The notes below the pieces were generated by a model. It was not told the DNA's origin. It saw nothing but the letters and a program-made list of their open reading frames with translations, and did not search any database. From positions 1-55,524 of IMG/VR virus record IMGVR_UViG_3300025723_000050: a stretch of 55,524 nt of DNA; one strand, given 5' to 3'. Below, piece after piece: positions 11,584 through 22,431 of this stretch. The stretch comes from a virus (taxonomy: Duplodnaviria > Caudoviricetes). The first letter of the stretch is position 1. Each line of letters opens with the position of its first letter. Position numbers and translations under genes: made by a program.

Positions 11584-12593
11584 TGAAGGCAGCTATTCTT
11601 AAAGAGCTCAACGCTCCTTTGTCTATAGAGAATATTGGCCTTACTGAACTACAAGTGGGTCAAGTACAGGTCCGAGTCCTAGTCAGTGGTATCTGTGGAT
11701 CACAGCTGCACGAGATCAATGGCAACAAAGGCAATGGTAAGTTCCTTCCCCACCTCATGGGCCACGAAGGCTGTGGTATCGTAGAAGACATTGGCCCTGG
11801 TGTTACTACTGTTAAAGTAGGAGACAAGGTTGTTATGCATTGGCGACCAGGTGCTGGTATTGAGTCTGCATTCCCCCAGTACATGCTTGGTGACACCACC
11901 TTTAGTAGCGGTAAAGTAAATACCCTATCTCAGTGGTCTATTGTTTCGGAGAACCGACTTACCACAGTCCCCTCAGAGACCCCTAATGACCTCGCTGCGC
12001 TCCTTGGATGTAGTTTGACTACCGCACTAGGCATTATTGATAATGAGTGCGATTTTAAGTTCGGTGAAAGCGTTGCTATCATTGGCACAGGTGGTGTAGG
12101 TCTCAACCTTATCCAGGGTGCAGCTATGCGTAGTCTTAGCCCTATTGTTGCAATCGATAACAATGAAAACAAGCGTGAGCTTTCATTCACTGCTGGTGCT
12201 GATCTCTTCTATAATACCTCAGAAGAAAAGTTCCAAGGCAAGGTTGATGTTGTTATTGACACAACTGGCAATGTTGATGTAATCAAAGAAAGCTTTGGTT
12301 ATCTTTCTAACAATGGTCGAATGATATTGGTAGGCCAACCCAAGCCAGGTACATCGCTTGAGATTGCTAATGCTCTTAGTTTCTTTAATGGCAATGGTCT
12401 TAGCATCAAAGCTACACAGGGTGGCAAGACAGACCCAACGGTTGATATCTTGCGTTATGTTAACCTTGAAAAGGCTGGGAAGCTTTACTTCGATGAGTTT
12501 ATTACTCACAGATACAAGCTTGATGAAGTCAACAAAGCATTTGATATGCTTAGAAGTGGTAATGCCGGTAGAATCATGATAGATATGGAATAA
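11583..12593 (+). CDS. Zn-dependent alcohol dehydrogenase (MDR family)
   Basis: GICGS, GHEGCG, GTGGVG; lacks the 4-Cys structural zinc loop. Confidence 0.92.
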   Translation: MKAAILKELNAPLSIENIGLTELQVGQVQVRVLVSGICGSQLHEINGNKGNGKFLPHLMGHEGCGIVEDIGPGVTTVKVGDKVVMHWRPGAGIESAFPQYMLGDTTFSSGKVNTLSQWSIVSENRLTTVPSETPNDLAALLGCSLTTALGIIDNECDFKFGESVAIIGTGGVGLNLIQGAAMRSLSPIVAIDNNENKRELSFTAGADLFYNTSEEKFQGKVDVVIDTTGNVDVIKESFGYLSNNGRMILVGQPKPGTSLEIANALSFFNGNGLSIKATQGGKTDPTVDILRYVNLEKAGKLYFDEFITHRYKLDEVNKAFDMLRSGNAGRIMIDME

Positions 12594-13792
12594 TGGACAA
12601 GCGCAACTGGACCCCAGAAGAATTGATTGCCTTTGAAGATAGAATTGGCGATCTTTACCTTGATAATAAATTGCCTTTTTTGTTTCACCTCTCTGGTGGC
12701 AACGAAGAACAATTGATTGATATCTTTAAGGATATTAAAGAAGGTGACTACGTTATTTCTAACCACCGTAGTCACTACCATGCTCTTTTGCATGGTATCC
12801 CCGCAGATGACCTAGAAGACAAGATCCTTAATGGTCGTAGCATGTTTGTTTACGATCGTGCACGTAACTTCTTCTGTTCTGCAATCATTGGTGGTACCCC
12901 TGCGATTGCTGCTGGCATTGCTGTTGCATTGAAGAAGAAGGGATCTGACCAAAGAGTCTGGTGCTTTGTTGGCGATGGCACAGAAGACAATGGTCACCTC
13001 TTTGAAGCTGCACGGTACGTAGAAGGCTTTGACCTTCCATGCACATTTGTTGTGGAATCAAATAACCGCTCAGTAGAAACTACTAACGAAGAGCGTTGGG
13101 GCACCACTGCTCACTTTGAGTGGCCTTTTGAGTGCGTAAAGAAGTACCAATATGACATTACGTACCCACATGCTCGTAAGCCTGGAATGATTGACCTATC
13201 AAAGGCTGTCAAACTTACAGATGATGATTACTTCCCTAAGCTCGAGCCTTTTGAATACCCTGTGGTTGATATTGACCCAAGTATTTCTTACAAAGATGCT
13301 ATTAGTCAGGTAATGACTAAACTTGGAGAAGAAGGTGCTGTATTCATTGGCTATAACGTAGCTAGAGGCGATGCTATGGGCACCATTAAAGAAGTGCCAT
13401 ACGAACAGAAGCTAGAAACTCCTGTAGCAGAGAACCTTATGATGGGTATAGCTATTGGTATGTCATTCGAAGGTTACAGACCAGTAGTTTACTTTGAACG
13501 TCATGACTTTATGCTTGTAGCTATGGATGCAATTGTTAACCACCTTGACAAGATCGAAAGAATCTCGCATGGTGAGTTCAAGGTACCTGTTATCGTACGT
13601 GCAATTGCTGCTGACTCAGGGCCTTTCTACTCAGGCATTACTCACTCGCAAGATTTTACTGAGCTTCTAAAAGCTGCTGTTACTATCCCAGTTATTGAGC
13701 CAACAAACGGTGCAGAAGTAGTAAACGCTTTTTATGGAGCTGCTTTGAGTGGTCGTCCAGCAATTATCATCGAAAAGAAATCACGATACTAG
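12593..13792 (+). CDS. Fused minimal TPP-dependent enzyme (E1-alpha-like plus transketolase pyrimidine-binding domain)
   Basis: HRSH, GDG...NN TPP motif, ETPVAE, THSQ; no C-terminal transketolase domain. Confidence 0.88.
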   Translation: MDKRNWTPEELIAFEDRIGDLYLDNKLPFLFHLSGGNEEQLIDIFKDIKEGDYVISNHRSHYHALLHGIPADDLEDKILNGRSMFVYDRARNFFCSAIIGGTPAIAAGIAVALKKKGSDQRVWCFVGDGTEDNGHLFEAARYVEGFDLPCTFVVESNNRSVETTNEERWGTTAHFEWPFECVKKYQYDITYPHARKPGMIDLSKAVKLTDDDYFPKLEPFEYPVVDIDPSISYKDAISQVMTKLGEEGAVFIGYNVARGDAMGTIKEVPYEQKLETPVAENLMMGIAIGMSFEGYRPVVYFERHDFMLVAMDAIVNHLDKIERISHGEFKVPVIVRAIAADSGPFYSGITHSQDFTELLKAAVTIPVIEPTNGAEVVNAFYGAALSGRPAIIIEKKSRY

Positions 13793-14518
13793 ATGAGTCG
13801 TGTACTTGTAGTCGGTGAGAGTTGCAAAGACGTATTTGTTTACTGTGATGCAATGCGCCTTGCCCCTGATGTTCCAGTGCCAGTGCTAAATGTACTTGGC
13901 CAAGTAGAGAATGCAGGCATGGCAATGAATGTACTGAATAACATCAGTATGTTTGTTGACTATGACATCATTACTAATGAGAACTGGGATAGCATCACTA
14001 AAACGAGGTATGTGCATAACGCTACTAACCATATGTTCTTTAGAGTTGATGCAGAATCTAACTATGGTAGATTTCATAACAATATTGATTACAGCAAGTA
14101 CGATGCTATTATTATTTCTGACTATAACAAGGGATTCCTTACAGAAGAGGACATCCAAGACATTTGCGAGTCGCACCCACGTGTTTTTGTTGACACAAAG
14201 AAGAAGCTTGGCAAGTTTATAAGTGATGCATTCATTGTTAAGATCAATGATTATGAGTACAACAACTCAGAACCTATTGCTAGACTTTTTTACTCAGATA
14301 TCATTATTCATACCATGGGTGCTAAGGGCTGTGAGTACAGAGGCGAAAGATTCCCCGTTACCCCTGTAGAAGTTAAAGATTCTTCAGGTGCAGGTGATGC
14401 TTTCATAGCAGCACTCGTGGTCAAGTACGTTGAAACTAACGATATCGTACAAAGCATTGAGTTTGCTAACAAGTGTGCTTCTGAGGTAGTAACACATAGA
14501 GGAGTTACAACAATATGA
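13793..14518 (+). CDS. hldA: PfkB-family heptose-phosphate kinase (HldE kinase domain-like)
   Basis: RLAPDVPVPV, KTRY, ISDYNKG, DSSGAGDAF motifs. Confidence 0.85.
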   Translation: MSRVLVVGESCKDVFVYCDAMRLAPDVPVPVLNVLGQVENAGMAMNVLNNISMFVDYDIITNENWDSITKTRYVHNATNHMFFRVDAESNYGRFHNNIDYSKYDAIIISDYNKGFLTEEDIQDICESHPRVFVDTKKKLGKFISDAFIVKINDYEYNNSEPIARLFYSDIIIHTMGAKGCEYRGERFPVTPVEVKDSSGAGDAFIAALVVKYVETNDIVQSIEFANKCASEVVTHRGVTTI

Positions 14519-15300
14519 TCATTCTGACTGGTTCAGAAGGGTTTATTGGAAGTAATTTTAAAAAAGCGCTCTCAGGCAAGCAAGTCATCTATCTTGACTA
14601 CAAAGACTGCCATAGTTTCTTATATAGCTTTAAAGAATGGGACAAAGTTGAGCTTATCCTTCACCAGGGTGCTATCTCGAGCACAACGGAGAAGGATCTT
14701 AGAAAACTATACACGTGGAACGTCGAATTTACGATGGATCTATTTGAAATCGCTATGTTGTTTGGCATCCCTGTAAAATATGCTTCTTCTGCCTCTGTTT
14801 ATGGCAATTTAGATGGCATTGTTAATCCAATCAACCAATATGCCATTTCAAAACTGCAAATTGATTATTGGGTGCAAGATCGTATTAAAGACTTCTCACT
14901 TATCCAAGGATTCCGTTATTTTAACGTATATGGTAACGGTGAGCAGTATAAAGGCGACCAAGCAAGCCCAGTTAGCAAGTTCTCAGCTCAGATTGAAGAA
15001 ACAGGCGTACTAAAACTGTTTGAAGGCTCTGACAAGTTCTATAGGGATTTTATTTGCGTAGATGACGTCGTCAATATCGTTCTTAACAATGATAAGACCT
15101 CTGGCATCTATGATCTTGGTACAAGCAACCCAATTAGCTTTCAAGACGTTGCTGAGGCAGTTGCATATAGGTACAGTGGTGCATTAGAGTACGTACCATT
15201 CCCAGAGCATCTAGTTGGCAAGTATCAAACGTATACTTGTGCCAAAAAAGAGTGGGGCGACTACAACTTCAAGACAATAGGTGATTATCTAGATGGATAA
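14515..15300 (+). CDS. hldD: ADP-L-glycero-D-manno-heptose 6-epimerase-like SDR
   Basis: TGSEGFIG, HQGAISST, YASSASVYG, YAISK, FRYFNVYG, RDFI, YQTYT. Confidence 0.88.
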   Translation: MIILTGSEGFIGSNFKKALSGKQVIYLDYKDCHSFLYSFKEWDKVELILHQGAISSTTEKDLRKLYTWNVEFTMDLFEIAMLFGIPVKYASSASVYGNLDGIVNPINQYAISKLQIDYWVQDRIKDFSLIQGFRYFNVYGNGEQYKGDQASPVSKFSAQIEETGVLKLFEGSDKFYRDFICVDDVVNIVLNNDKTSGIYDLGTSNPISFQDVAEAVAYRYSGALEYVPFPEHLVGKYQTYTCAKKEWGDYNFKTIGDYLDG

Positions 15301-15682
15301 GAAGATATTTCTCACTGGTACGTTTGATGTAATCCATCCTGGCCATATTGAGTTGTTGAAATACGCTAAGAAGCATGGTGACCACTTGACTGTTGCTATT
15401 GACACCGACAGAAGAGTAAAAGAGAAGAAGGGCGAGGATCGTCCGTTCCACAACCAAGATGATAGGCAACTTGTTATCAGCTCTATAAAATACGTTGATC
15501 AGACTTTCCTATTTGACTCAGATGAAGAGCTAATTAACCTTGTTAAGGCTTTAGAACCAGACGTGTGGTTTGCTGGTGCTGACTGGTGGGGTAAAGAATT
15601 TCCAGGTAAAGAATACGCTAAGAAAATTAGCTATTTTACTAGGATTGAACCGCATTCAACGACTAGGATACTAGAACGATGA
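15293..15682 (+). CDS. hldC: Heptose-1-phosphate nucleotidyltransferase-like (HldE domain II, cytidylyltransferase fold)
   Basis: GTFDVIHPGH (HxGH), KGEDRP, STT motifs. Confidence 0.82.
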   Translation: MDKKIFLTGTFDVIHPGHIELLKYAKKHGDHLTVAIDTDRRVKEKKGEDRPFHNQDDRQLVISSIKYVDQTFLFDSDEELINLVKALEPDVWFAGADWWGKEFPGKEYAKKISYFTRIEPHSTTRILER

Positions 15683-15996
15683 GATATGTTGTAGACATTG
15701 ATGGTACTATCTGTACGCTTACAGATGGCAAGTATGAAAACGCACTACCCATAGAAAATGCTATCAAAAAGATTAATGATTTGTATTCTAAGGGCAATAC
15801 TGTTGTTTATTTTACTGCTCGTGGTATGAGCAGGACCACTAATGACCCAGTGCTGTCTGATAGGCTTTTCCGTGAGATTACAGAGCGCCAATTAGAAGAA
15901 TGGGGTTGTAAGTACCATTACCTAATTATGGGCAAGCCTTCTGGTGATGTTTATATTGATGATAAAGGAATCAACAGTGATGACTTCTTTAAATAA
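15679..15996 (+). CDS. Small HAD-family phosphatase
   Basis: DIDGT, TAR, GKP..D.YIDDK. Confidence 0.85.
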   Translation: MRYVVDIDGTICTLTDGKYENALPIENAIKKINDLYSKGNTVVYFTARGMSRTTNDPVLSDRLFREITERQLEEWGCKYHYLIMGKPSGDVYIDDKGINSDDFFK

Positions 15997-16336
15997 AGAG
16001 TTTGTAGAAAAGGGCTGGGGTTACGAAGAGATTCTCTGTAACTCTAAGAAGTACTGTGCCAAGATCTTGCATATGAACAAGGGCAAGAAGCTTTCTTACC
16101 ACTACCACAACATTAAAGACGAGACATTCTATGTAGAGAATGGCAAAGTCATTGTTGTGTACGGTGAGACAGATGACATTGAGCTAGCACAAGAGAAGGT
16201 ACTTAACGCGGGTGATCTTTTCCATGTACCAACAGGGTTGCGTCACAGGATCATTGGCTTAGAAAACTCACGGGTGTTTGAGTTCTCGACACAGCACTTT
16301 GATGATGATAGTATTAGAGTAATCAAAGGCGATTAG
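15980..16336 (+). CDS. Cupin (sugar isomerase/epimerase-like)
   Basis: ATG 15980 after AAGGA; KGWGYE, SYHYHxxKDETF, HR motifs. Confidence 0.82.
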   Translation: MTSLNKEFVEKGWGYEEILCNSKKYCAKILHMNKGKKLSYHYHNIKDETFYVENGKVIVVYGETDDIELAQEKVLNAGDLFHVPTGLRHRIIGLENSRVFEFSTQHFDDDSIRVIKGD

Positions 16337-16344
16337 TTTTACAA

Positions 16345-16416
16345 TCCCAGGTAGCTCAGCGGCAGAGCAAGCGACTGTTAATCGCTCGGTCGTAGGTTCG
16401 ATCCCTACCCTGGGAG
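16345..16416 (+). tRNA. tRNA-Asn(GTT)
   Basis: TCCCAGG/CCTGGGA acceptor; AGCGA/TCGCT stem with GTT; canonical T arm. Confidence 0.95.
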
Positions 16417-16421
16417 CATAA

Positions 16422-16508
16422 GGAATGATGGCTGAGTGGTCGAAAGCACCGGTTTGCTAAACCGGCGAGGTGTTAAAGCCTCCGTAGGTTCGAATCCTAC
16501 TCATTCCG
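16422..16508 (+). tRNA. tRNA-Ser(GCT)
   Basis: GGAATGA/TCATTCC acceptor; CCGGT/ACCGG stem with GCT; long variable arm. Confidence 0.95.
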
Positions 16509-16530
16509 CTGCATGCCATGCTAGTGTCTT

Positions 16531-16692
16531 TGAGGGATGGTGTAATGGCAACACGTCTCATCAGATAATGCTGTGCGTAAACGCTTAAAACATTCTGGGG
16601 TAGTGTAAAGGTAGCACCGGAGTCTTTGGAACTTCTAGCCCTCGTTCGACCCGAGGCCCCAGAGCTTGAAGGTTCGAGTCCTTCTCCCTCAG
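16531..16692 (+). pseudogene. Interrupted Gln-like tRNA (outer shell) enclosing another tRNA
   Basis: 5' TGAGGGA plus D arm (16531-16554) and T arm plus TCCCTCA-G (16668-16692) pair perfectly; the anticodon arm is replaced by an insert of about 110 nt. Confidence 0.8.
16594..16664 (+). tRNA. tRNA-Gln(TTG), nested
   Basis: TCTGGGG/CCCCAGA acceptor; GGAGT/ACTTC stem with TTG; CCTCG/CGAGG T stem. Confidence 0.92.
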
Positions 16693-16696
16693 CAAA

Positions 16697-16769
16697 CCGA
16701 CAGTAGCTCAGTGGTAAGAGCGGAAAGCTTATATCTTTCTGGCCGATGGTTCGATTCCATCCTGTCGGA
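16697..16769 (+). tRNA. tRNA-Ile(TAT)
   Basis: CCGACAG/CTGTCGG acceptor; GAAAG/CTTTC stem with loop CTTATAT; A73. Confidence 0.88.
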
Positions 16770-16784
16770 CTTTTATTATTGCAT

Positions 16785-16847
16785 GTTCAACTCCTACTGC
16801 CCGGACTCATAATCTCTTGGTCGGGGGTTCAATTCCCTCCTGCCGGA
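16785..16847 (+). pseudogene. tRNA fragments: T-loop remnant fused to the 3' half of a CAT-anticodon tRNA
   Basis: GTTCAACTCC remnant, then CTCATAA loop, GGGGG-TTCAATT-CCCTC T arm and CTGCCGG-A; no 5' acceptor strand or D arm. Confidence 0.7.
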
Positions 16848-16940
16848 CAATTTAAAACAAGCTCTATCTTATAACAGGTATTAGGCAATATGTTGCCTAC
16901 TGTCCAGCGTTTCTACGGAAACAATATAAGGAGTAACACG

Positions 16941-17708
16941 ATGACCTCAATGTTTGATTATGACGACTCAGTAAATATGGCTTTTGATGCCAAGATTGCT
17001 GGTAAAAACCTTGTCACCGCTAAGCACGAATTGCTTACTAAGACCGGTGATTTCTTGTTCATGGCACACAGTGACCGTGAACTTGCTTTCCGTATGCAGA
17101 TGGTTGAAGAGGACATCGAGCGCACTGCTCACCGTAGACTCGCTAACGTTAGTGACTCCAAGGCTAAGCTCGTCCGTGCCGTGCTAGAAGAGTGGACTCT
17201 GCGCCACGCATCTTGCCAGTTCTGCAAGCTTGCTTCTGATAAAGACCCCAATAGCAATAAAGACGTTCCTGACTACACGCCCAAGAGCAATGCCAATGAC
17301 TACCACAAGCACTACGATGGAAGTGATGAACCTCCTTGCACTAACTGTGGTATGCGTGGCAACCACTACTGCACAGGCAGTAAGGGTCACCCTAACACAC
17401 CTAACCCGTACAACCCAAAGAAGGGTCCTAACCCGTACAGCCCGGATAAGGGTCCTAACAAGGGTCCTAACAAAGATCCTTACAGAACTGACCCTAACAA
17501 GCCATTTACTCCACACCCCAACACAGCTCCTAACAAGCAACCTGACAACCCTTACAAGGGTCCTAACAAGGGTCAACCTGGCATCCCTAACCCGTACAAC
17601 CCAGGCAAGGGTAAGGATCGTCCTGAGACCAATATCATGCCTCCACACCCTAACAAGCGGCCCGATAATCCTGACAAAGGTCCTAACAAGCCCCCTTACC
17701 AAAAGTAA
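16941..17708 (+). CDS. Hypothetical protein: helical N-domain plus Pro/Asn/Lys repeat tail
   Basis: ATG 16941 after AGGAG; KGPN/PNPY repeats. Confidence 0.75.
   Translation: MTSMFDYDDSVNMAFDAKIAGKNLVTAKHELLTKTGDFLFMAHSDRELAFRMQMVEEDIERTAHRRLANVSDSKAKLVRAVLEEWTLRHASCQFCKLASDKDPNSNKDVPDYTPKSNANDYHKHYDGSDEPPCTNCGMRGNHYCTGSKGHPNTPNPYNPKKGPNPYSPDKGPNKGPNKDPYRTDPNKPFTPHPNTAPNKQPDNPYKGPNKGQPGIPNPYNPGKGKDRPETNIMPPHPNKRPDNPDKGPNKPPYQK
17390..17700 (+). repeat. Coding repeats (AAGGGTCCTAAC = KGPN; CCTAACCCGTAC = PNPY)
   Basis: Multiple dispersed and tandem copies visible in the DNA and protein. Confidence 0.8.
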
Positions 17709-17738
17709 TATCAACCTTTATTAAATCGTTAGGTTGAT

Positions 17739-19217
17739 ATGGATAAAACATTTAACTCTAAATACTCGTCGGGTACTGGTAGCATTAGTGGGAGTGACCC
17801 TGAATGGGGCACTGGCAAAATGGTCAGCAAGTCTCCTTTTGGGTTGCCTTGGTATGTTGACGAACCAGAAGATCTTAAGGTTATTCGTAGATCAAAAGAC
17901 CCCCATTGGCAATTTGGTTCAACTCCTAGAAGCAGAAAAGAACGTGATGAACTCGGTCGCCCAATAGCACCTGTTGAAAAGAGAGAAAAGGATACTTGGG
18001 AAGAATTTGATCCTGACGTACACAAACCTAGTTTTGCAGTCGATTCTGAAGGTGTAAAAGAAAAAGATCCAGCAGAACCAACCCCTCCAAAAACTCGTTA
18101 TACAAGCGAAGAGGATGCTCTTAAGCGTATTCTTAACCAACAGGGTCAACGAACAACTGATTTCCCCATTATCTATTCTCCAGAGGCACTTGAATTCTTG
18201 AAGGAATCAAGTGTTATTACTTTGTCACGTATTGAAGACATTGTTAAGCCAACCAGAAGAATTTTTAACGCTGCTGTTAACTCAGAAGATAATTATGACA
18301 CTGATAATCCTGAGAACTTGCAGGATGAATGGACTGATCGTACTCCTGAGGAAGAAGAAAAAGACCAAGCTGAATCAGAAGCATCAGAGGAAGAGGAAGA
18401 AGAAAATCAGGTAGGTAAGTTTACTTACGATGATAATCATTCTTTTACCCCTGCTGCTCCAGGGGTAGACGAAGAGCCCGAAAACGAAGACAATCAAGAA
18501 GAGGGTACTTCACAAGACAGCGGTGAAGAGGGTAAAGAAGACGAGGATATCGTCCCAATCCCAACAGCACCACCAAGGCCTAAGAAGTTTAAGAGCTCTA
18601 CGCCAAAAGTAATTACAGAACAAACTGCTGTCCCTCACAACCCTGAAAACGAAAGTTTTGATGAAGAAGATGAGAACCTTGCTCCTATTGCTGAATCAGG
18701 TGCTGCTAGAAAGCTAAAGCAAGATAAGAACCGTAAGAAAACTGTCAATGTTCCTCCTCACGCTGTGCAAGGGCCTGACCGTTTCATTGCTCACCTTTTA
18801 CGTGAAGACAACGAAAAAACACAAAAAATGCTTGTAAGAAAAAGTGACAAAAAAGGCATTACTTACAATGCTGCTCTTGATGATACCTTAAATGACTTAA
18901 GAGAAACTAATGAAAAACGCGAGAATATAAAAGAGCTTAGCAAGGCAATCCTTGACAAAGGCCTGTCCGATGACGGGTATGGCAAAGCAGTCACTAAAGA
19001 ACGTGGAGAAAAAGAAACTCACGTGCATTGTGGTTGTGAAAAAAGAGATGGCTTTGAAACGCTTGATAACATTGCTAAGATCAAGGGATCTGATCAGTAT
19101 AAGCAAGGCATCATTGATATCAAAAGAGATCCACAAGAATATGACTCTGATGGTTACTCAAAGCGTGACCGTATGGATAAATTTATTGCAGAATCTACTC
19201 GTTGTAAGGGTGACTAA
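17739..19217 (+). CDS. Large acidic, probably disordered hypothetical protein
   Basis: 492-aa ORF; starts MDKTFNSKYSS; E/D-rich centre. Confidence 0.75.
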   Translation: MDKTFNSKYSSGTGSISGSDPEWGTGKMVSKSPFGLPWYVDEPEDLKVIRRSKDPHWQFGSTPRSRKERDELGRPIAPVEKREKDTWEEFDPDVHKPSFAVDSEGVKEKDPAEPTPPKTRYTSEEDALKRILNQQGQRTTDFPIIYSPEALEFLKESSVITLSRIEDIVKPTRRIFNAAVNSEDNYDTDNPENLQDEWTDRTPEEEEKDQAESEASEEEEEENQVGKFTYDDNHSFTPAAPGVDEEPENEDNQEEGTSQDSGEEGKEDEDIVPIPTAPPRPKKFKSSTPKVITEQTAVPHNPENESFDEEDENLAPIAESGAARKLKQDKNRKKTVNVPPHAVQGPDRFIAHLLREDNEKTQKMLVRKSDKKGITYNAALDDTLNDLRETNEKRENIKELSKAILDKGLSDDGYGKAVTKERGEKETHVHCGCEKRDGFETLDNIAKIKGSDQYKQGIIDIKRDPQEYDSDGYSKRDRMDKFIAESTRCKGD

Positions 19218-19978
19218 TGTCAATTCATGATACACACTACGACCCAAAGAAGCGTTGCGCTATAGCAGACTTTGTAGACTCTCTTCCCGAAGATGAAAAA
19301 AAAGACTGGGCTTACTTAGGTAATTGCGGCATTATTCAGCGAGAATCTAGAAAAGCAAAAAAAGCTAGAAAACGTGGTGGTAAGAGTTGGGATAGCACCA
19401 TCGGCGCAGAGAACAAGCATGGTGAGATTATTATCACCCGCTCCGGCAATAGTCAAATCCATTCTTGTGTTAACCATGCTGCTTTGCTTTTGAATGAAGG
19501 CGTCAACATGGAGCACATGCTTCAGCATCAACGACCTGATCTAAATCCTGGTGAAAGCCCAGACACGCAGAACCGTTTCCACAACAGAACAGAAATGCGC
19601 ACTGAAAGATCAGACAAAGCAAAAGCTAGGCTGACTAAAAGAAAAATCTTGGAAAATAAAGAAAATAGAACGCGACGTAGAACTGATGCTGATGCTGATG
19701 CTACACCAGTGCCTAATCCAAATAGAACACCAGTGGAATACTTTAATGAAAAAGAGCTTAAACCAAAGATTAAATTCAATGCTGGCGAAACAGAAACGCC
19801 TACAGCTCCTACAGCTCCTACAGAAACCAAGCGTCCTGGTCGAGAGCGTAAGAACAAGCCAACACCTGCCGCGCCAACACCTGCCACGCCAACTAGTAGC
19901 CCAACAATTAATATTCCAAAAGCAAGAGTAAACCGGTTGTTTAATGAAAACGAACTCGAAGATGACGAAAGCTTATAA
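19217..19978 (+). CDS. Hypothetical basic protein with P/T-rich tail
   Basis: 253-aa ORF, TAATG coupled at both ends. Confidence 0.7.
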   Translation: MSIHDTHYDPKKRCAIADFVDSLPEDEKKDWAYLGNCGIIQRESRKAKKARKRGGKSWDSTIGAENKHGEIIITRSGNSQIHSCVNHAALLLNEGVNMEHMLQHQRPDLNPGESPDTQNRFHNRTEMRTERSDKAKARLTKRKILENKENRTRRRTDADADATPVPNPNRTPVEYFNEKELKPKIKFNAGETETPTAPTAPTETKRPGRERKNKPTPAAPTPATPTSSPTINIPKARVNRLFNENELEDDESL

Positions 19979-22431
19979 TGAAAAAGTTTGTTTTTAATAA
20001 AGAGATAGAATACGTTAAGACTTCAGCCAATAACTTTGAGCCTGAGCTGCCTAACGCAAAACAAGAAGAATACAATCGGCTTGAGAACGAAGCACGTAAG
20101 ACTCGCAAAAAGCGTGAAAAAAAGCGCAAACAAACTGATGATTTTAATGACGCACCATTTGCTATTTTGATGGGTGATCACGACTATGACCCAGACACAA
20201 ACCCAACTGCAGAACCACCTTCGTGGGAGTTTGTTCACCATGAAATACCTAAGTACTCGGGAGAAAATAACCGTGGTGCTGACTATACCCGCGACTTGAA
20301 GCAAACTTTGCTTAGTAGTGGTCAGTACCGTACAGTTCGTATCCCTAAATCACAATACTCAAACTCTGAGCATGCTGATTTTCTTCTTGATAAAGCACCG
20401 ACTGGTATCTTAGGTTTTAGACGCGTAAATCCTGGCGAGAACATTAGTAGTGCTACAAGCAAGCTTCTGCGTGCTAATGAACAGGGTGAGAAAAGCAAAG
20501 CGCAAGGCGCAGGGACTGGCTCTGATGGGCTAGACCCAGACTCAGTTGCTAATATCATTGCCAACCACAAAGGTGATGCTATTCACCACTTAATGTCATT
20601 GGCTCTTAGTGCTAGCCCTTATAAAAAGGGTGACGATCTTTGTGTGTGCGGAGGGGATTCAACCCATGGTTGTGTAGTGCCTCATGGTAGAGGTGATACC
20701 CCAGAACAACTGCCACAAAGAGTGCAAGGTGGCAGTGTCCCTGGCTACAAAGAGCGTCTTTCACAGAACCCATTGCTCAAATTTTTCCGCAATGTGAATG
20801 GAAAAACTACATTAGCTCACGCTTTTGATGAAGGTGGTCCCGAGGGTACATTCATGCCTATGACGCACTTTACAACAGAGGGTGATACTGTTAGACGTTA
20901 TACAAGTTACAACGCTGCAAAAGCAAGCGATGTTACTGGCGATGATCCTGATATGTATGAACGTCCTTTGTGCGCATGTGGTGATGGTAAGGTTAACGCA
21001 TACCAGAATGAAAACATTGTTGGGGACCGTGATTGCTTCAAGGGCAACGTAAGAAAAAAAGAATCCGTTGATAGCAACGGTAAGCCTATCCTTGTACCAC
21101 ACACAATTGGTTTGGGCGCGGGCAAGCTAAAGTACGTTAATCCTGAAGACGCACCTACATGCAGAACTTGTGCTGGTAACAAATTTACTGATGATGGTGC
21201 AAAATCAGTACGATGCGCAACCTGTAAGGGTACAGGGCATGATCTAAGCGCAATTGATTGTGATAACTGTGAGTCACACGACTCTAGTATCCATTTGACA
21301 CCCGATAACGTTTGTCCATATTGCGATGGAACAATGTACGATAAGACTAGTGACACCCCAACTTTGGTTAAAAAAGATTCAACATCATGGGATGATAACT
21401 ACGAAAGCGCAACTAAAAACCATACTGCAGATGTACTTTATGGCATGGCACAAGTTGCTTTCCCATTGAAAGGCACTGGTGTTGGTAGCACTGGCATTGA
21501 TCACTACCACCATGAACGTCGTAAAGACTGCATAAATTGTGATCATGATGATCAAGAGATGTTTGACGAGAATGGTAAAGCTACAGGTTTGCCATGCCCC
21601 TGCCACATAAGAAGCGCAGCAGACTCAAGCACGTTGCCTCCAGGTACACACATCTTCCATGGTGATTCTAAGACTGGTGCGGGCGCTGGTGTCTATGTTC
21701 CTACCAGAATGCTACAAAAGTCTATGGTTGATACCTATGGTGAAGGTCTTGAAGCTAGTCCTCATGAATTCCACCACTTTCCTGACCTTATTGATGCAAA
21801 GACTAAAAAAACAACAACAGATTTCTATAGAAATATGAATGATGCAGATGTTGATGATATAAACAGTACTAAGCCACTTAGATCACAGTTCGTTACTGGT
21901 ATGTTGCAAAATGGTGTTAGCACGCCTAAAGAAGATCTGCTTGACGCTCTTAGGAAGAGTGAAGAGAACTGGAAAAAACCAAATGCTCATTACACAGCAC
22001 CTTCAGCGGATCTTGCTTTAGCTAAAGAATTAGCTAGCAAAGTGGGTACAGTTCCTGACTTAGTCCATCCCTATGTTGCAAAGAAAGTAAAAGAACGTGC
22101 AGTAAACCAACCTGTCTTTAGACACGACCCAGAAAACTTCCCGGAGCACATGCAAGAAGGTGTGTATGCTGTTGAACGTACTATGGGCATTTTGCCTGAT
22201 GCAAATTCTGGTCGTTACAATATGGATACAGATGCATTGTATAAATCTCTTAGACAAGGTGACACTGAAGGTGCTGCTAAATCATCTGCTAAGTTACATG
22301 AGCGTATTAAACGTTTCAGTGGGCCTAGAAGTGCAGAATTGTTTAAGCAATCAGTATCTAAGTTCCCAGATTATCAGACAGATAGCTGGACAATTAAGCC
22401 AGCAGAAGTAGAGGCAAAAGCAAATGAATAA
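19978..22431 (+). CDS. Large Cys-rich protein with DnaJ-type CxxCxGxG zinc-finger repeats
   Basis: CRTCAG, CATCKGTG, CPYCDGT and further CxC/CxxC motifs. Confidence 0.75.
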   Translation: MKKFVFNKEIEYVKTSANNFEPELPNAKQEEYNRLENEARKTRKKREKKRKQTDDFNDAPFAILMGDHDYDPDTNPTAEPPSWEFVHHEIPKYSGENNRGADYTRDLKQTLLSSGQYRTVRIPKSQYSNSEHADFLLDKAPTGILGFRRVNPGENISSATSKLLRANEQGEKSKAQGAGTGSDGLDPDSVANIIANHKGDAIHHLMSLALSASPYKKGDDLCVCGGDSTHGCVVPHGRGDTPEQLPQRVQGGSVPGYKERLSQNPLLKFFRNVNGKTTLAHAFDEGGPEGTFMPMTHFTTEGDTVRRYTSYNAAKASDVTGDDPDMYERPLCACGDGKVNAYQNENIVGDRDCFKGNVRKKESVDSNGKPILVPHTIGLGAGKLKYVNPEDAPTCRTCAGNKFTDDGAKSVRCATCKGTGHDLSAIDCDNCESHDSSIHLTPDNVCPYCDGTMYDKTSDTPTLVKKDSTSWDDNYESATKNHTADVLYGMAQVAFPLKGTGVGSTGIDHYHHERRKDCINCDHDDQEMFDENGKATGLPCPCHIRSAADSSTLPPGTHIFHGDSKTGAGAGVYVPTRMLQKSMVDTYGEGLEASPHEFHHFPDLIDAKTKKTTTDFYRNMNDADVDDINSTKPLRSQFVTGMLQNGVSTPKEDLLDALRKSEENWKKPNAHYTAPSADLALAKELASKVGTVPDLVHPYVAKKVKERAVNQPVFRHDPENFPEHMQEGVYAVERTMGILPDANSGRYNMDTDALYKSLRQGDTEGAAKSSAKLHERIKRFSGPRSAELFKQSVSKFPDYQTDSWTIKPAEVEAKANE

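What the first reader, a model, noticed from the sequence alone, without database searches (positions are those of the whole stretch)
16531..16692. A tRNA inside a tRNA
Seen: a 5' acceptor strand and D arm (TGAGGGA TG GTGT AATGGCA ACAC, 16531-16554) and a matching T arm and 3' acceptor strand (GAAGG TTCGAGT CCTTC TCCCTCA G, 16668-16692) are separated by 39 nt plus a complete tRNA-Gln(TTG) (16594-16664). The outer shell keeps perfect 7-bp acceptor and 5-bp T stems and Gln-type U1-A72/G73, but has no anticodon arm. Inference: either an insertion into the anticodon region supplied a replacement tRNA, or the shell is retained as a processing or protective scaffold or decoy. Standard tRNA finders would probably report only the inner gene.
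Basis: partly seen in the sequence, partly recalled or inferred. Interest (0 to 1): 0.82.

Follow-up and report, generated by a model that had tools for sequence, protein, structure and literature searches.

The report
Homing-endonuclease scar splitting a phage tRNA-Gln gene
The "outer tRNA" is the two leftover ends of the phage's original glutamine tRNA gene, which was split by a mobile endonuclease cassette that brought its own replacement glutamine tRNA and later lost most of the endonuclease gene.

Summary
The shell is not a second RNA. All 14 related IMG/VR contigs that carry the same 24-nt 5' shell have it as an uninterrupted 71-nt tRNA-Gln(UUG), at the same place in the tRNA array.

In five other contigs the two halves are separated by about 0.8 kb. 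That insert holds a 225-aa HNH endonuclease gene whose last five codons and stop lie inside the "inner" tRNA-Gln. The window has the same junctions but lacks 691 bp of that gene. What remains is 5 nt of the cassette's left end and the last 33 nt of the ORF.

The 105-nt cassette core is 100% identical across phages whose flanks are about 80-87% identical or unalignable. In relatives the shell decays or is lost.

A second nested case has a different outer tRNA-Gln allele and different junctions in the same anticodon arm. This points to a site-specific, tRNA-carrying homing cassette.

The scaffold or decoy reading has no support. It is a new variant of free-standing homing endonucleases in phage tRNA clusters, of moderate interest.

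The parts
16345..16509 (+). Upstream neighbours in the tRNA array: tRNA-Asn(GUU) 16345-16417 and tRNA-Ser(GCU) 16422-16509. The 21-nt spacer from Ser to the shell has the same length as in relative L002, which has the intact gene.
16531..16555 (+). 5' remnant of the resident tRNA-Gln(UUG) gene: acceptor 5' strand, U8/G9, D arm and G26. It is identical to the intact type-A allele up to this point.
   Evidence: L002/L051 intact...ACAC G GGAGC CTTTGGA GCTTT TGTT GAAGG...
16556..16560 (+). TCTCA, the left end of the inserted cassette. The same 5 nt follow G26 in the HNH-bearing relatives G001 and G002. A 691-bp deletion relative to G001 lies between 16560 and 16561.
   Evidence: (in runs X3 and X9 a 1019-nt contig joins 16560 to 16561 through 691 other letters)
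16561..16608 (+). Relic of the 3' end of the HNH endonuclease ORF (SDNAVRKRLKHSGVV*). 16561-16593 lies before the tRNA. The last 5 codons and the stop TAA (16606-16608) lie inside the inner tRNA. No start codon or HNH domain is left.
   Evidence: (residues 210-225 of P0001)
16594..16664 (+). Inner tRNA-Gln(UUG), 71 nt up to discriminator G73, anticodon at 16626-16628. It is the only complete tRNA-Gln called in the window and is carried by the cassette.
   Evidence: 49.9 bits; 71/71 identical in G001, G002, G004, L101-L103
16665..16667 (+). CTT, what is left of the resident anticodon-stem 3' strand and variable loop. Relatives G001 and G004 have CTTTTGTT here, so 5 nt are deleted in the window.
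16668..16692 (+). 3' remnant of the resident tRNA-Gln: T arm, acceptor 3' strand and G73. It is identical (25/25) to the intact type-A allele.
16697..16770 (+). Downstream neighbour tRNA-Ile(UAU).

Best explanation
The outer 'tRNA' is a scar, not a gene. The phage lineage originally had an ordinary 71-nt tRNA-Gln(UUG) gene between tRNA-Ser and the next tRNA. A mobile cassette entered its anticodon arm. The cassette is a free-standing HNH homing-endonuclease gene whose last codons overlap a second, divergent tRNA-Gln(UUG) gene. It removed resident nt 27 to about 37, anticodon included. It left nt 1-26 on its left and nt 40-73 on its right. A GAG is shared at the right junction, so that junction is ambiguous by 3 nt. 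The resident gene was destroyed and the cassette's own tRNA-Gln took over its function. In the window's lineage a later 691-bp deletion removed the endonuclease gene. It left 5 nt of the cassette's left end and the last 33 nt of the ORF. That brought the two shell halves to 113 nt apart and produced the 'tRNA inside a tRNA' picture.

Shown: orthologous intact alleles; the complete cassette in relatives with the same junctions; the deletion; cassette identity far above flank identity; decay of the shell in relatives.

Inferred: the HNH enzyme cuts intact tRNA-Gln genes in or near the anticodon arm; the cassette spreads by double-strand-break repair in co-infections, with the tRNA halves and neighbouring tRNA genes as homology arms; the inner tRNA and the split allele are not cut; the shell is transcribed only as spacer of the tRNA precursor and is discarded.
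For: (1) Intact allele at the same place. All 14 IMG/VR contigs with the exact 5' shell carry an uninterrupted tRNA-Gln(TTG). In L002 the order is Asn-Ser-Gln, with the same 21-nt spacer from Ser to Gln. It scores 61.5 bits in Rfam.
(2) Complete cassette. In G001 and G002 query nt 1-30 and nt 31-162 lie about 690 nt apart. Between them is a 225-aa ORF matching phrog_10822 'HNH endonuclease' at E 2.3e-55 and Pfam HNH at 21.9 bits against a cut-off of 21.4. Its stop codon lies in the D loop of the inner tRNA.
(3) The window shares G26|TCTCA and the last 33 nt of the ORF with these relatives and lacks 691 nt. The relic reads VSSDNAVRKRLKHSGVV*. The GVSDNA(V/I)-K motif is conserved at the C-terminus of distant family members. 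The window is therefore a deletion derivative, not an ancestor.
(4) Mobility. The 105 nt at 16561-16665 are exact in G001, G002 and L101-L103, and the 71-nt tRNA is exact in G004. Flanks are 82% identical on the right. On the left they align only over a 74-nt tRNA-Asn or a 17-nt word. The cassette sits in three neighbour contexts: Ser|Ile here, Asp|Ile in G001, Asp|Tyr in G002.
(5) Hybrid 3' remnants. G001 has GAAGG...CCTGG and G004 has GAAGG...CCTAG. The 5' strand of the T stem travels with the cassette and the 3' strand matches a different resident allele, as expected for co-conversion tracts that end in the T loop.
(6) Independent second case. G003 has a diverged inner tRNA and a diverged HNH tail (GVLDNAIRKHLNNLG*) nested in a different tRNA-Gln allele. 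That allele is intact in 12 of the 13 contigs that carry its 5' 24 nt; G003 is the 13th. The junctions are different but in the same anticodon arm: the 5' part is kept to about nt 29 and the 3' part resumes at nt 35.
(7) All 7 contigs with the inner-type tRNA (6 in IMG/VR plus the window) have a 3' remnant of an outer-type tRNA-Gln right behind it.
(8) HNH-bearing and HNH-deleted forms occur in the same runs at similar depth: 20 against 12.8 in X3 and 977 against 803 in X9.
(9) G001-type and G002-type HNH genes differ at 6 of 678 nt, 5 of them synonymous and 1 giving S16T.
Against: No enzyme activity, cut site or homing event was tested, so the HNH gene could be a passenger of ordinary recombination in a recombination-prone tRNA array. 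The founding insertion needs an illegitimate join, because resident bases are lost and at most 3 nt of microhomology are present. The homology arms inside the tRNA are short (26 and about 34 nt). The inner tRNA scores lower than the intact resident allele (49.9 against 61.5 bits), so its full function is assumed, not shown. No RNA data were available. The window's shell is perfectly paired, which taken alone could be read as constraint. Only two cassette lineages from one kind of habitat were seen. Several contigs may be the same phage population sampled repeatedly. The left junction in G003 may be the later deletion's edge rather than the original insertion edge.
Confidence: 0.85

Rival explanations
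1. The outer shell is kept because it works. It would be a tRNA-like scaffold closed by its acceptor helix around the inner tRNA, guiding or protecting processing, or acting as a decoy for a nuclease or tRNA-binding enzyme.
For: The acceptor (7 bp), D and T stems are perfect in the window. The minimum-energy fold of 16531-16692 does pair the outer acceptor strands around an inner cloverleaf.
Against: The fold is no better than shuffles (z = -1.12; 23 of 200 shuffles fold as well). The shell equals the intact type-A allele base for base, so its perfection needs no selection. In relatives with the same cassette the T stem has 2 of 5 mismatches (G001, G004). The 5' half is missing in G004 and L021/L022. 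The two halves lie about 830 nt apart in the HNH-bearing forms. Variable-region bases are deleted in the window. Rfam finds no tRNA-like family here: YrlA scores 15.7 bits against a gathering score of 69.
Confidence: 0.04
2. Ordinary recombination in a tRNA array, with no role for the endonuclease. A foreign tRNA-Gln and a neighbouring gene were joined into the resident gene by chance illegitimate recombination and then spread by general homologous recombination.
For: tRNA arrays of these phages are mosaic. Neighbours differ between relatives. Another half-tRNA scar lies 100 nt downstream. The junctions show loss of bases rather than a clean insertion.
Against: Two independent insertions, in two different tRNA-Gln alleles, both fall within the anticodon arm and both carry an HNH ORF of the same family fused to the same type of tRNA. 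The HNH family is tied to tRNA arrays: 28 of 30 metagenome loci examined hold tRNA genes, and 14 of 30 have a same-strand tRNA overlapping the ORF stop or starting within 20 nt of it. The same is seen in Escherichia phage mistaenkt. Cassette identity is 100% against about 80% for flanks.
Confidence: 0.08
3. Assembly artefact: a metagenome assembler joined pieces of two co-occurring strains that carry different tRNA-Gln alleles.
For: Several variants do share the 16561-16665 segment in the same runs (loose ends and alternative contigs), so the graph branches there. Each Logan contig has only 29-30 letters on one side of a junction, below the tool's 31-letter bridging rule.
Against: The junction words themselves are in the reads of 4 runs: contigs covering 16300-16590 with 0 differences. 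Depths left and right of the shared segment are similar: 27.4 and 31.9 in X1, 12.8 and 16.4 in X3. The same shell-cassette-shell order stands in 5 separately assembled contigs that carry the HNH gene.
Confidence: 0.02
4. An intron-containing tRNA: the 113 nt would be spliced out to give a working outer tRNA.
For: The interruption lies in the anticodon arm, where bacterial group I introns and archaeal introns sit (named from general knowledge; the search listing shows such papers).
Against: Compared with the intact allele, the outer exons lack nt 27 to about 37, including the anticodon, so no splice can restore a tRNA. ARAGORN in intron mode calls nothing on this strand. The Rfam table for 16200-17000 lists no intron family among its 16 matches at E up to 10. 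113 nt is shorter than the group I cores I recall.
Confidence: 0.01

Closest known systems
Phage T4 SegB, a GIY-YIG homing endonuclease in the T4 tRNA gene cluster (PMC2330249; abstract and discussion passages read)
   Same: It is a free-standing endonuclease gene inside a phage tRNA array. It cuts within tRNA genes of related phages that lack it. The tRNA region is inherited preferentially in co-infection, with co-conversion of flanks. [quoted passage not shown]
   Different: SegB is GIY-YIG, not HNH. It lies between tRNA genes, not inside one. It recognises the T-psi-C region of many tRNA genes. No split resident tRNA with a carried replacement copy is described in the passages I read.
[quoted passage not shown] 2004; original paper not seen)
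   Same: They are endonuclease ORFs located in a phage tRNA cluster. Homologs of the HNH here (33-48% identity) are annotated in cultured phages, and I checked the neighbourhood of two. In Escherichia phage mistaenkt the gene sits inside a tRNA array with tRNA-Leu starting 2 nt after the stop. In Enterococcus phage 113 tRNA genes lie about 200 nt upstream and about 1.5 kb downstream.
   Different: I did not test relatedness to the T5 enzymes. As far as the passages I read go, they are intergenic and do not split a tRNA gene.
Free-standing endonuclease genes that split or partly replace a host gene: Aeromonas phage Aeh1 mobE in nrdA, 'fractured genes' with split inteins (PMC2677866, search listing and abstract only), and mitochondrial endonuclease ORFs that bring a replacement 3' end of atp6 and leave the old end as a pseudogene (recalled from Paquin et al. 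1994, not seen here)
   Same: The endonuclease gene sits inside a useful gene without a self-splicing intron. In the mitochondrial cases function is kept by a carried replacement copy and the displaced piece stays as a scar.
   Different: Those are protein-coding genes and the replacement is partial. Here a whole RNA gene is carried and both ends of the old gene remain, giving nested cloverleaf halves.
Disrupted tRNA genes of Archaea and algae: split, permuted and multi-intron tRNAs (PMC4390854, PMC3218864, PMC3293823; search listing and abstracts only)
   Same: tRNA halves are separated in the DNA. Mobile elements have been proposed as the cause of disruption.
   Different: Those halves are rejoined by a splicing endonuclease and a ligase to make a working tRNA. 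Here bases including the anticodon are missing and the halves are dead.

Membership tests
tRNA (Rfam RF00005): outer shell | Complete cloverleaf with an anticodon arm, scoring above the gathering score | tested here: not met
   No Rfam or ARAGORN call for the outer shell, with or without intron mode. Nt 27 to about 37 of the intact allele are absent.
tRNA (Rfam RF00005): inner gene | Complete cloverleaf above the gathering score, with a readable anticodon | tested here: met
   49.9 bits against 29, model positions 1-71. ARAGORN calls Gln(ttg). Charging and use were not tested.
Intron-containing tRNA (group I or bulge-helix-bulge) | Exons that join to a full tRNA | tested here: not met
   Comparison with the intact orthologous allele shows exon bases missing, including the anticodon.
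Intron-containing tRNA (group I or bulge-helix-bulge) | Intron core or motif recognised by models | tested here: not met
   The Rfam table for 16200-17000 at E up to 10 lists no intron family. ARAGORN -i gives no call on this strand.
Free-standing homing endonuclease element (HNH class) | Intact endonuclease ORF with an HNH motif | tested here: not met
   In the window only 16 codons remain. The feature is met in relatives G001, G002 and L101-L103: 225 aa, phrog_10822 at E 2.3e-55, Pfam HNH just above its cut-off. The window holds a degenerate relic of such an element.
Free-standing homing endonuclease element (HNH class) | Presence/absence polymorphism at one site among related genomes | tested here: met
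   14 contigs have the uninterrupted site. 5 have the HNH cassette and the window has the deleted cassette, all with the same junctions.
Free-standing homing endonuclease element (HNH class) | Element much more alike than its flanks, and co-conversion of adjacent sequence | tested here: met
   105/105 identical against about 80-87% or unalignable flanks. Hybrid T stems occur in G001 and G004.
Free-standing homing endonuclease element (HNH class) | Site-specific cleavage of the empty allele and gene conversion in co-infection | not testable with these tools
   Needs protein expression and cleavage or homing assays.
Integrase-borne island at a tRNA gene | An integrase gene and a direct repeat of the tRNA 3' part at the far end of the insert | tested here: not met
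   The insert is 113 nt here and about 0.8 kb in relatives. It encodes only the HNH ORF and a tRNA. The two shell halves are complementary parts of one gene, not repeats.
tRNA-like non-coding RNAs (tmRNA, YrlA) | Match to the family covariance model | tested here: not met
   YrlA scores 15.7 bits against 69. The tmRNA hit scores 13.2 against 47 and lies elsewhere, at 16822-16839.

The most novel reading that the evidence does not exclude
The HNH-plus-tRNA-Gln unit is a self-complementing homing cassette. Its endonuclease targets the anticodon arm of resident tRNA-Gln genes, and the cassette makes the hit harmless by delivering a divergent, uncut tRNA-Gln. This would be a way for a homing endonuclease to live inside a useful gene without a self-splicing intron or intein. 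Having the ORF's last codons and stop inside the tRNA would tie endonuclease expression to RNase P processing. The tight ORF-tRNA spacing is seen in part of this HNH family (14 of 30 metagenome loci), so many 'HNH next to tRNA' pairs in phage tRNA arrays could be such mobile units that drive tRNA-gene replacement between phages.
Probability: 0.45. Interest if true: 0.7.

Novelty: new variant of a known kind. Interest (0 to 1): 0.5.

Why it matters
It turns an odd-looking "tRNA inside a tRNA" into a readable record of a mobile element's history: invasion of a tRNA gene, rescue by a carried copy, spread between diverged phages, then decay of the endonuclease. It gives a concrete, testable case of how homing endonucleases reshuffle the tRNA sets of large phages. 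It names a candidate enzyme-target pair, the 225-aa HNH protein and the anticodon-arm region of tRNA-Gln genes. It also warns annotators that perfectly paired tRNA halves around a tRNA can be scars rather than genes. It does not reveal a new kind of RNA.

Tried and rejected
ARAGORN with introns allowed (-i, -i0,200, thresholds down to 80%) gave no outer-tRNA call. At the lowest threshold it gave only two reverse-strand calls that I take to be spurious.

Rfam at E up to 10 on 16200-17000 gave only the four tRNAs above their gathering scores. Everything else was weak, including antisense plastid UTR models over tRNAs, sX4, YrlA and a tmRNA 3' end at 16822-16839.

blastn against 50,697 phage records found only single tRNA genes at 71-85% identity and no close relative.

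An exact search for 29 nt starting at the window-specific junction found nothing in IMG/VR. The pattern included the deletion junction, which no listed contig shares, and records of the window's own genome may be left out.

Exact searches for the inner and the outer 5' parts in 185,579 bacterial and archaeal genomes found nothing. Neither allele could therefore be traced to a host.

The PDB sequence search with the HNH protein gave nothing below E 0.04.

The RNA fold of the 162 nt was not better than shuffles (z -1.12).

My own scan for other split tRNA shells covered all loci from L055 up that had been fetched by then. The rule was 7/7 acceptor pairs, a D stem, a T arm and halves 110-1500 nt apart. 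It recovered this cassette in L055 and L101-L103 plus the window. It also returned cross-pairs between two tRNA-Phe copies (L111) and several hits rich in G-U pairs that I take as chance. G001 was missed because its T stem is mismatched.

For the tRNA census around HNH homologs I used 30 of the 80 metagenome loci returned: L101-L125, L127, L128, L131, L133 and L134. I dropped L126, L129, L130 and L132 (cut or short matches) and the 46 weaker ones. ORF ends there come from a simple extend-to-stop script.

No RNA holder was listed among the sequencing runs, so expression could not be examined. Logan contigs do not meet the tool's 31-letter bridging rule at either junction; they have 30 and 29 letters.

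Literature searches found no description of an endonuclease cassette with a replacement tRNA nested in a tRNA gene. These searches cover open-access full text only. Supplements were not opened. The Akulenko 2004 and Paquin 1994 papers were not seen.

I first took the two HNH versions to be identical proteins because tblastn printed 100%. A direct comparison showed one replacement, S16T.

Full report
What is there. The window is a 55.5-kb IMG/VR virus record, about 35% complete by CheckV's estimate. It carries a tRNA array: Asn 16345-16417, Ser 16422-16509, Gln(UUG) 16594-16665 and Ile(UAU) 16697-16770. TGAGGGA TG GTGT AATGGCA ACAC is at 16531-16554 and GAAGG TTCGAGT CCTTC TCCCTCA G is at 16668-16692. 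Between them are 39 nt, then the 71-nt tRNA-Gln, then CTT. tRNA finders report only the inner gene, even with introns allowed.

The shell is a real tRNA gene in relatives. A search with the protein encoded just downstream gave 27 related IMG/VR loci. ARAGORN calls a tRNA-Gln(ttg) in 22 of the 27. An exact search with the 24-nt 5' shell gave 14 contigs. In all 14 the 3' shell follows so that the two make an uninterrupted 71-nt tRNA-Gln(TTG). This is seen directly in 13 of the search loci; the 14th locus is cut, but the same contig is intact in L013. Four contigs (type A, for example L002) match both halves of the window's shell with 0 mismatches. Their gene reads ...ACAC G GGAGC CTTTGGA GCTTT TGTT GAAGG.... 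It lies after Asn and Ser with the same 21-nt spacer and scores 61.5 bits in Rfam. The window's shell is therefore this gene with its anticodon arm replaced.

What replaced it. The inner-type tRNA occurs in only six other IMG/VR contigs. In G001 and G002 the sequence upstream of it is coding, and the window's 16561-16593 is its last 33 nt. In G001 and G002 the 5' shell and the rest of the query lie about 690 nt apart. Between them is a 225-aa ORF. It matches phrog_10822 'HNH endonuclease' at E 2.3e-55 and Pfam HNH at 21.9 bits against a cut-off of 21.4. It has a C-terminal helix-turn-helix-like tail. The ORF ends ...GVSDNAVRKRLKHSGVV*, and its last five codons and the stop lie inside the inner tRNA.

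Three further metagenome contigs (L101-L103) carry the same arrangement. The window shares the left junction (G26 then TCTCA) and the ORF tail but lacks the 691 nt between them. In the window's frame the relic reads VSSDNAVRKRLKHSGVV*. The GVSDNA motif is conserved at the C-terminus of distant family members. The window is therefore a deletion derivative of the HNH-bearing form.

Junctions. Against the intact type-A allele, resident nt 1-26 are kept on the left. On the right the resident sequence resumes at CTTTTGTT GAAGG (nt 40 onward) directly after the inner tRNA's ...CCCCAGAG. GAG is common to the inner tRNA's end and resident nt 37-39, so the right junction is ambiguous by 3 nt. Ten to thirteen resident bases, including the anticodon, are gone. 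No splicing could restore the outer tRNA. In the window the remnant has also lost 5 nt, reading CTT instead of CTTTTGTT.

Signs of mobility. The 105 nt at 16561-16665 are identical in the window, G001, G002 and L101-L103, and the 71-nt tRNA is identical in G004. The flanks are much less alike. Against G001 and G002 the right flank is about 82% identical. The left flank aligns only over a 74-nt tRNA-Asn in G002 and a 17-nt word in G001. The closest genome with an intact gene (G005) is 82-89% identical in the flanks. The cassette has three sets of neighbours: Ser|Ile(UAU) here, Asp|Ile(UAU) in G001 and Asp|Tyr in G002.

In G001 and G004 the 3' remnant is a hybrid. The 5' strand of the T stem (GAAGG) is the cassette-linked type. 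The 3' strand (CCTGG or CCTAG) belongs to another resident allele, which leaves 2 of 5 pairs mismatched. This is what a co-conversion tract ending in the T loop would give. The two HNH versions differ at 6 of 678 nt, five synonymous and one giving S16T.

Logan contigs of four runs hold both the HNH-bearing form and the HNH-deleted form. The HNH-bearing form is a contig that joins 16560 to 16561 through 691 letters; that joint is listed for X3 and X9, and for X1 and X5 only the 5' end of the matching contig is shown. The HNH-deleted form covers 16300-16590 with 0 differences in all four runs. Depths are comparable.

A second, independent case. G003 (L044) has a diverged inner tRNA (different anticodon-stem bases) and a diverged ORF tail (GVLDNAIRKHLNNLG*). 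The shell there is different: TGGCAGA...TCTGCCA, with perfect acceptor, D and T stems. That shell is an intact 71-nt tRNA-Gln(TTG) in 12 of the 13 contigs that carry its 5' 24 nt. Against the closest intact allele (L197) the 5' part is kept to about nt 29 and the 3' part resumes at nt 35. The junctions differ from the window lineage but lie in the same anticodon arm. The left edge in G003 may be the edge of its own later HNH deletion. A loose end in run X1 shows the G003-type right junction on yet another allele.

Two more contexts show later stages. G004 has the inner tRNA directly after tRNA-Ser, with a 3' remnant only. L021 and L022 have an inner-type variant with a degenerate 3' remnant and no HNH. 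In all 7 contigs with an inner-type tRNA, a 3' remnant of an outer-type tRNA-Gln follows it.

The endonuclease family. Homologs at 29-47% identity lie in tRNA arrays. Of 30 metagenome loci examined, 28 hold tRNA genes. In 14 a same-strand tRNA overlaps the ORF's stop or starts within 20 nt of it (the choice of the 30 is given under Tried and rejected). In Escherichia phage mistaenkt the annotated HNH gene ends 2 nt before tRNA-Leu, inside a tRNA array of 12 annotated genes in the stretch shown. Nested shells were found only for the tRNA-Gln cassette.

How it most likely works. Shown: the structure, its orthologous empty site, the full cassette, its later deletion, its identity across diverged backgrounds, and decay of the shell. 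Inferred: the HNH enzyme cuts intact tRNA-Gln genes near the anticodon arm of co-infecting relatives. The break is repaired from the cassette-bearing genome, using the tRNA halves and neighbouring tRNA genes as homology. The carried tRNA-Gln compensates for the destroyed gene and is itself not a target. Once the endonuclease gene is common it decays, which I recall as the usual fate of homing genes. The shell halves are then only spacer in the tRNA precursor. I put 0.85 on the scar-of-an-HNH-cassette reading, and about 0.6-0.7 on active, site-specific homing by this enzyme.

Rivals. A functional scaffold or decoy is not supported. The fold is no better than shuffles, the shell equals the intact allele, and it decays in relatives. 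Passive recombination without endonuclease action cannot be excluded, but it does not explain two independent hits in one arm by the same gene pair. Misassembly is unlikely given and five separate assemblies with the same order of parts, although no single record meets the 31-letter bridging rule. An intron is excluded by the missing exon bases.

Comparison with what is known. T4 SegB is a GIY-YIG homing endonuclease in the T4 tRNA cluster. It cuts tRNA genes of related phages and drives inheritance of the region, and the paper notes that tRNA-Arg processing separates the stop codon of segB from the ORF (PMC2330249; abstract and passages read). That paper also cites endonuclease ORFs in the T5 tRNA cluster. 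The present case works like these. It differs in that the gene sits inside a tRNA gene of the same specificity and brings a whole replacement. From memory, the nearest parallels are endonuclease ORFs in mitochondrial genes that bring a replacement gene end. I found no paper describing such a tRNA case. The library is limited to open-access full text and no supplements were seen.

Verdict. This is a new variant of a known kind of mobile element, not a new kind of RNA. Interest is 0.5.

Noticed in passing
window 16771-16848: Directly behind tRNA-Ile(UAU) lies the 3' two-thirds of a tRNA with a CAT anticodon (…GGACTCATAATC…GGTTCAATTCCCTCCTGCCGGACA). It is homologous to the complete tRNA(CAT) of relatives L007 and L013, and its 5' third is replaced by unrelated sequence. 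It is another half-tRNA scar, suggesting that tRNA-gene replacement leaving 3' remnants recurs in this array. The earlier-scan note e1-6348995 covers this stretch.
   Followed up: partly
L044:5139-5317 (same as L050, record G003): A second 'tRNA inside a tRNA'. It has a different outer tRNA-Gln allele with perfect stems, a diverged inner tRNA-Gln and a diverged relic of the HNH tail. The outer allele is intact in 12 of the 13 contigs that carry its 5' 24 nt.
   Followed up: yes
L108, L116, L127, L133 (ORF ends); L182:1501-2030: In several distant homologs of the HNH gene the ORF's stop lies inside or within a few nt of a same-strand tRNA (Arg, Pro, Ala, Gln; Leu in Escherichia phage mistaenkt). 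T4 segB and tRNA-Arg are described the same way. This may be a general coupling of endonuclease expression to tRNA processing.
   Followed up: partly
L111:1049-2001: An HNH homolog is flanked on both sides by a tRNA-Phe(GAA) gene on the opposite strand. This may be a duplication linked to the insertion.
   Followed up: no
L109:1113-1140: A 5' tRNA-like fragment (acceptor strand plus a Gln-like D arm, GTGT AATGGTA) lies about 60 nt upstream of an HNH homolog that is followed by tRNA-Leu(UAG). No matching 3' half was found.
   Followed up: partly
L147:727-912: A perfectly paired acceptor helix, D arm and T arm are separated by about 110 extra nt, some 300 nt upstream of a weak HNH match in an unrelated metagenome contig. 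Its nature is unknown.
   Followed up: no
window 12593-16336: The genes just upstream of the tRNA array match PHROG families named nucleotide-sugar epimerase, heptose kinase/adenylyltransferase, phosphoheptose isomerase or polynucleotide kinase, and cysteine dioxygenase (cupin). This is a sugar-nucleotide pathway block, and the earlier-scan note e1-6348991 covers it. The four ORFs downstream (16890-22431) have no PHROG match.
   Followed up: no
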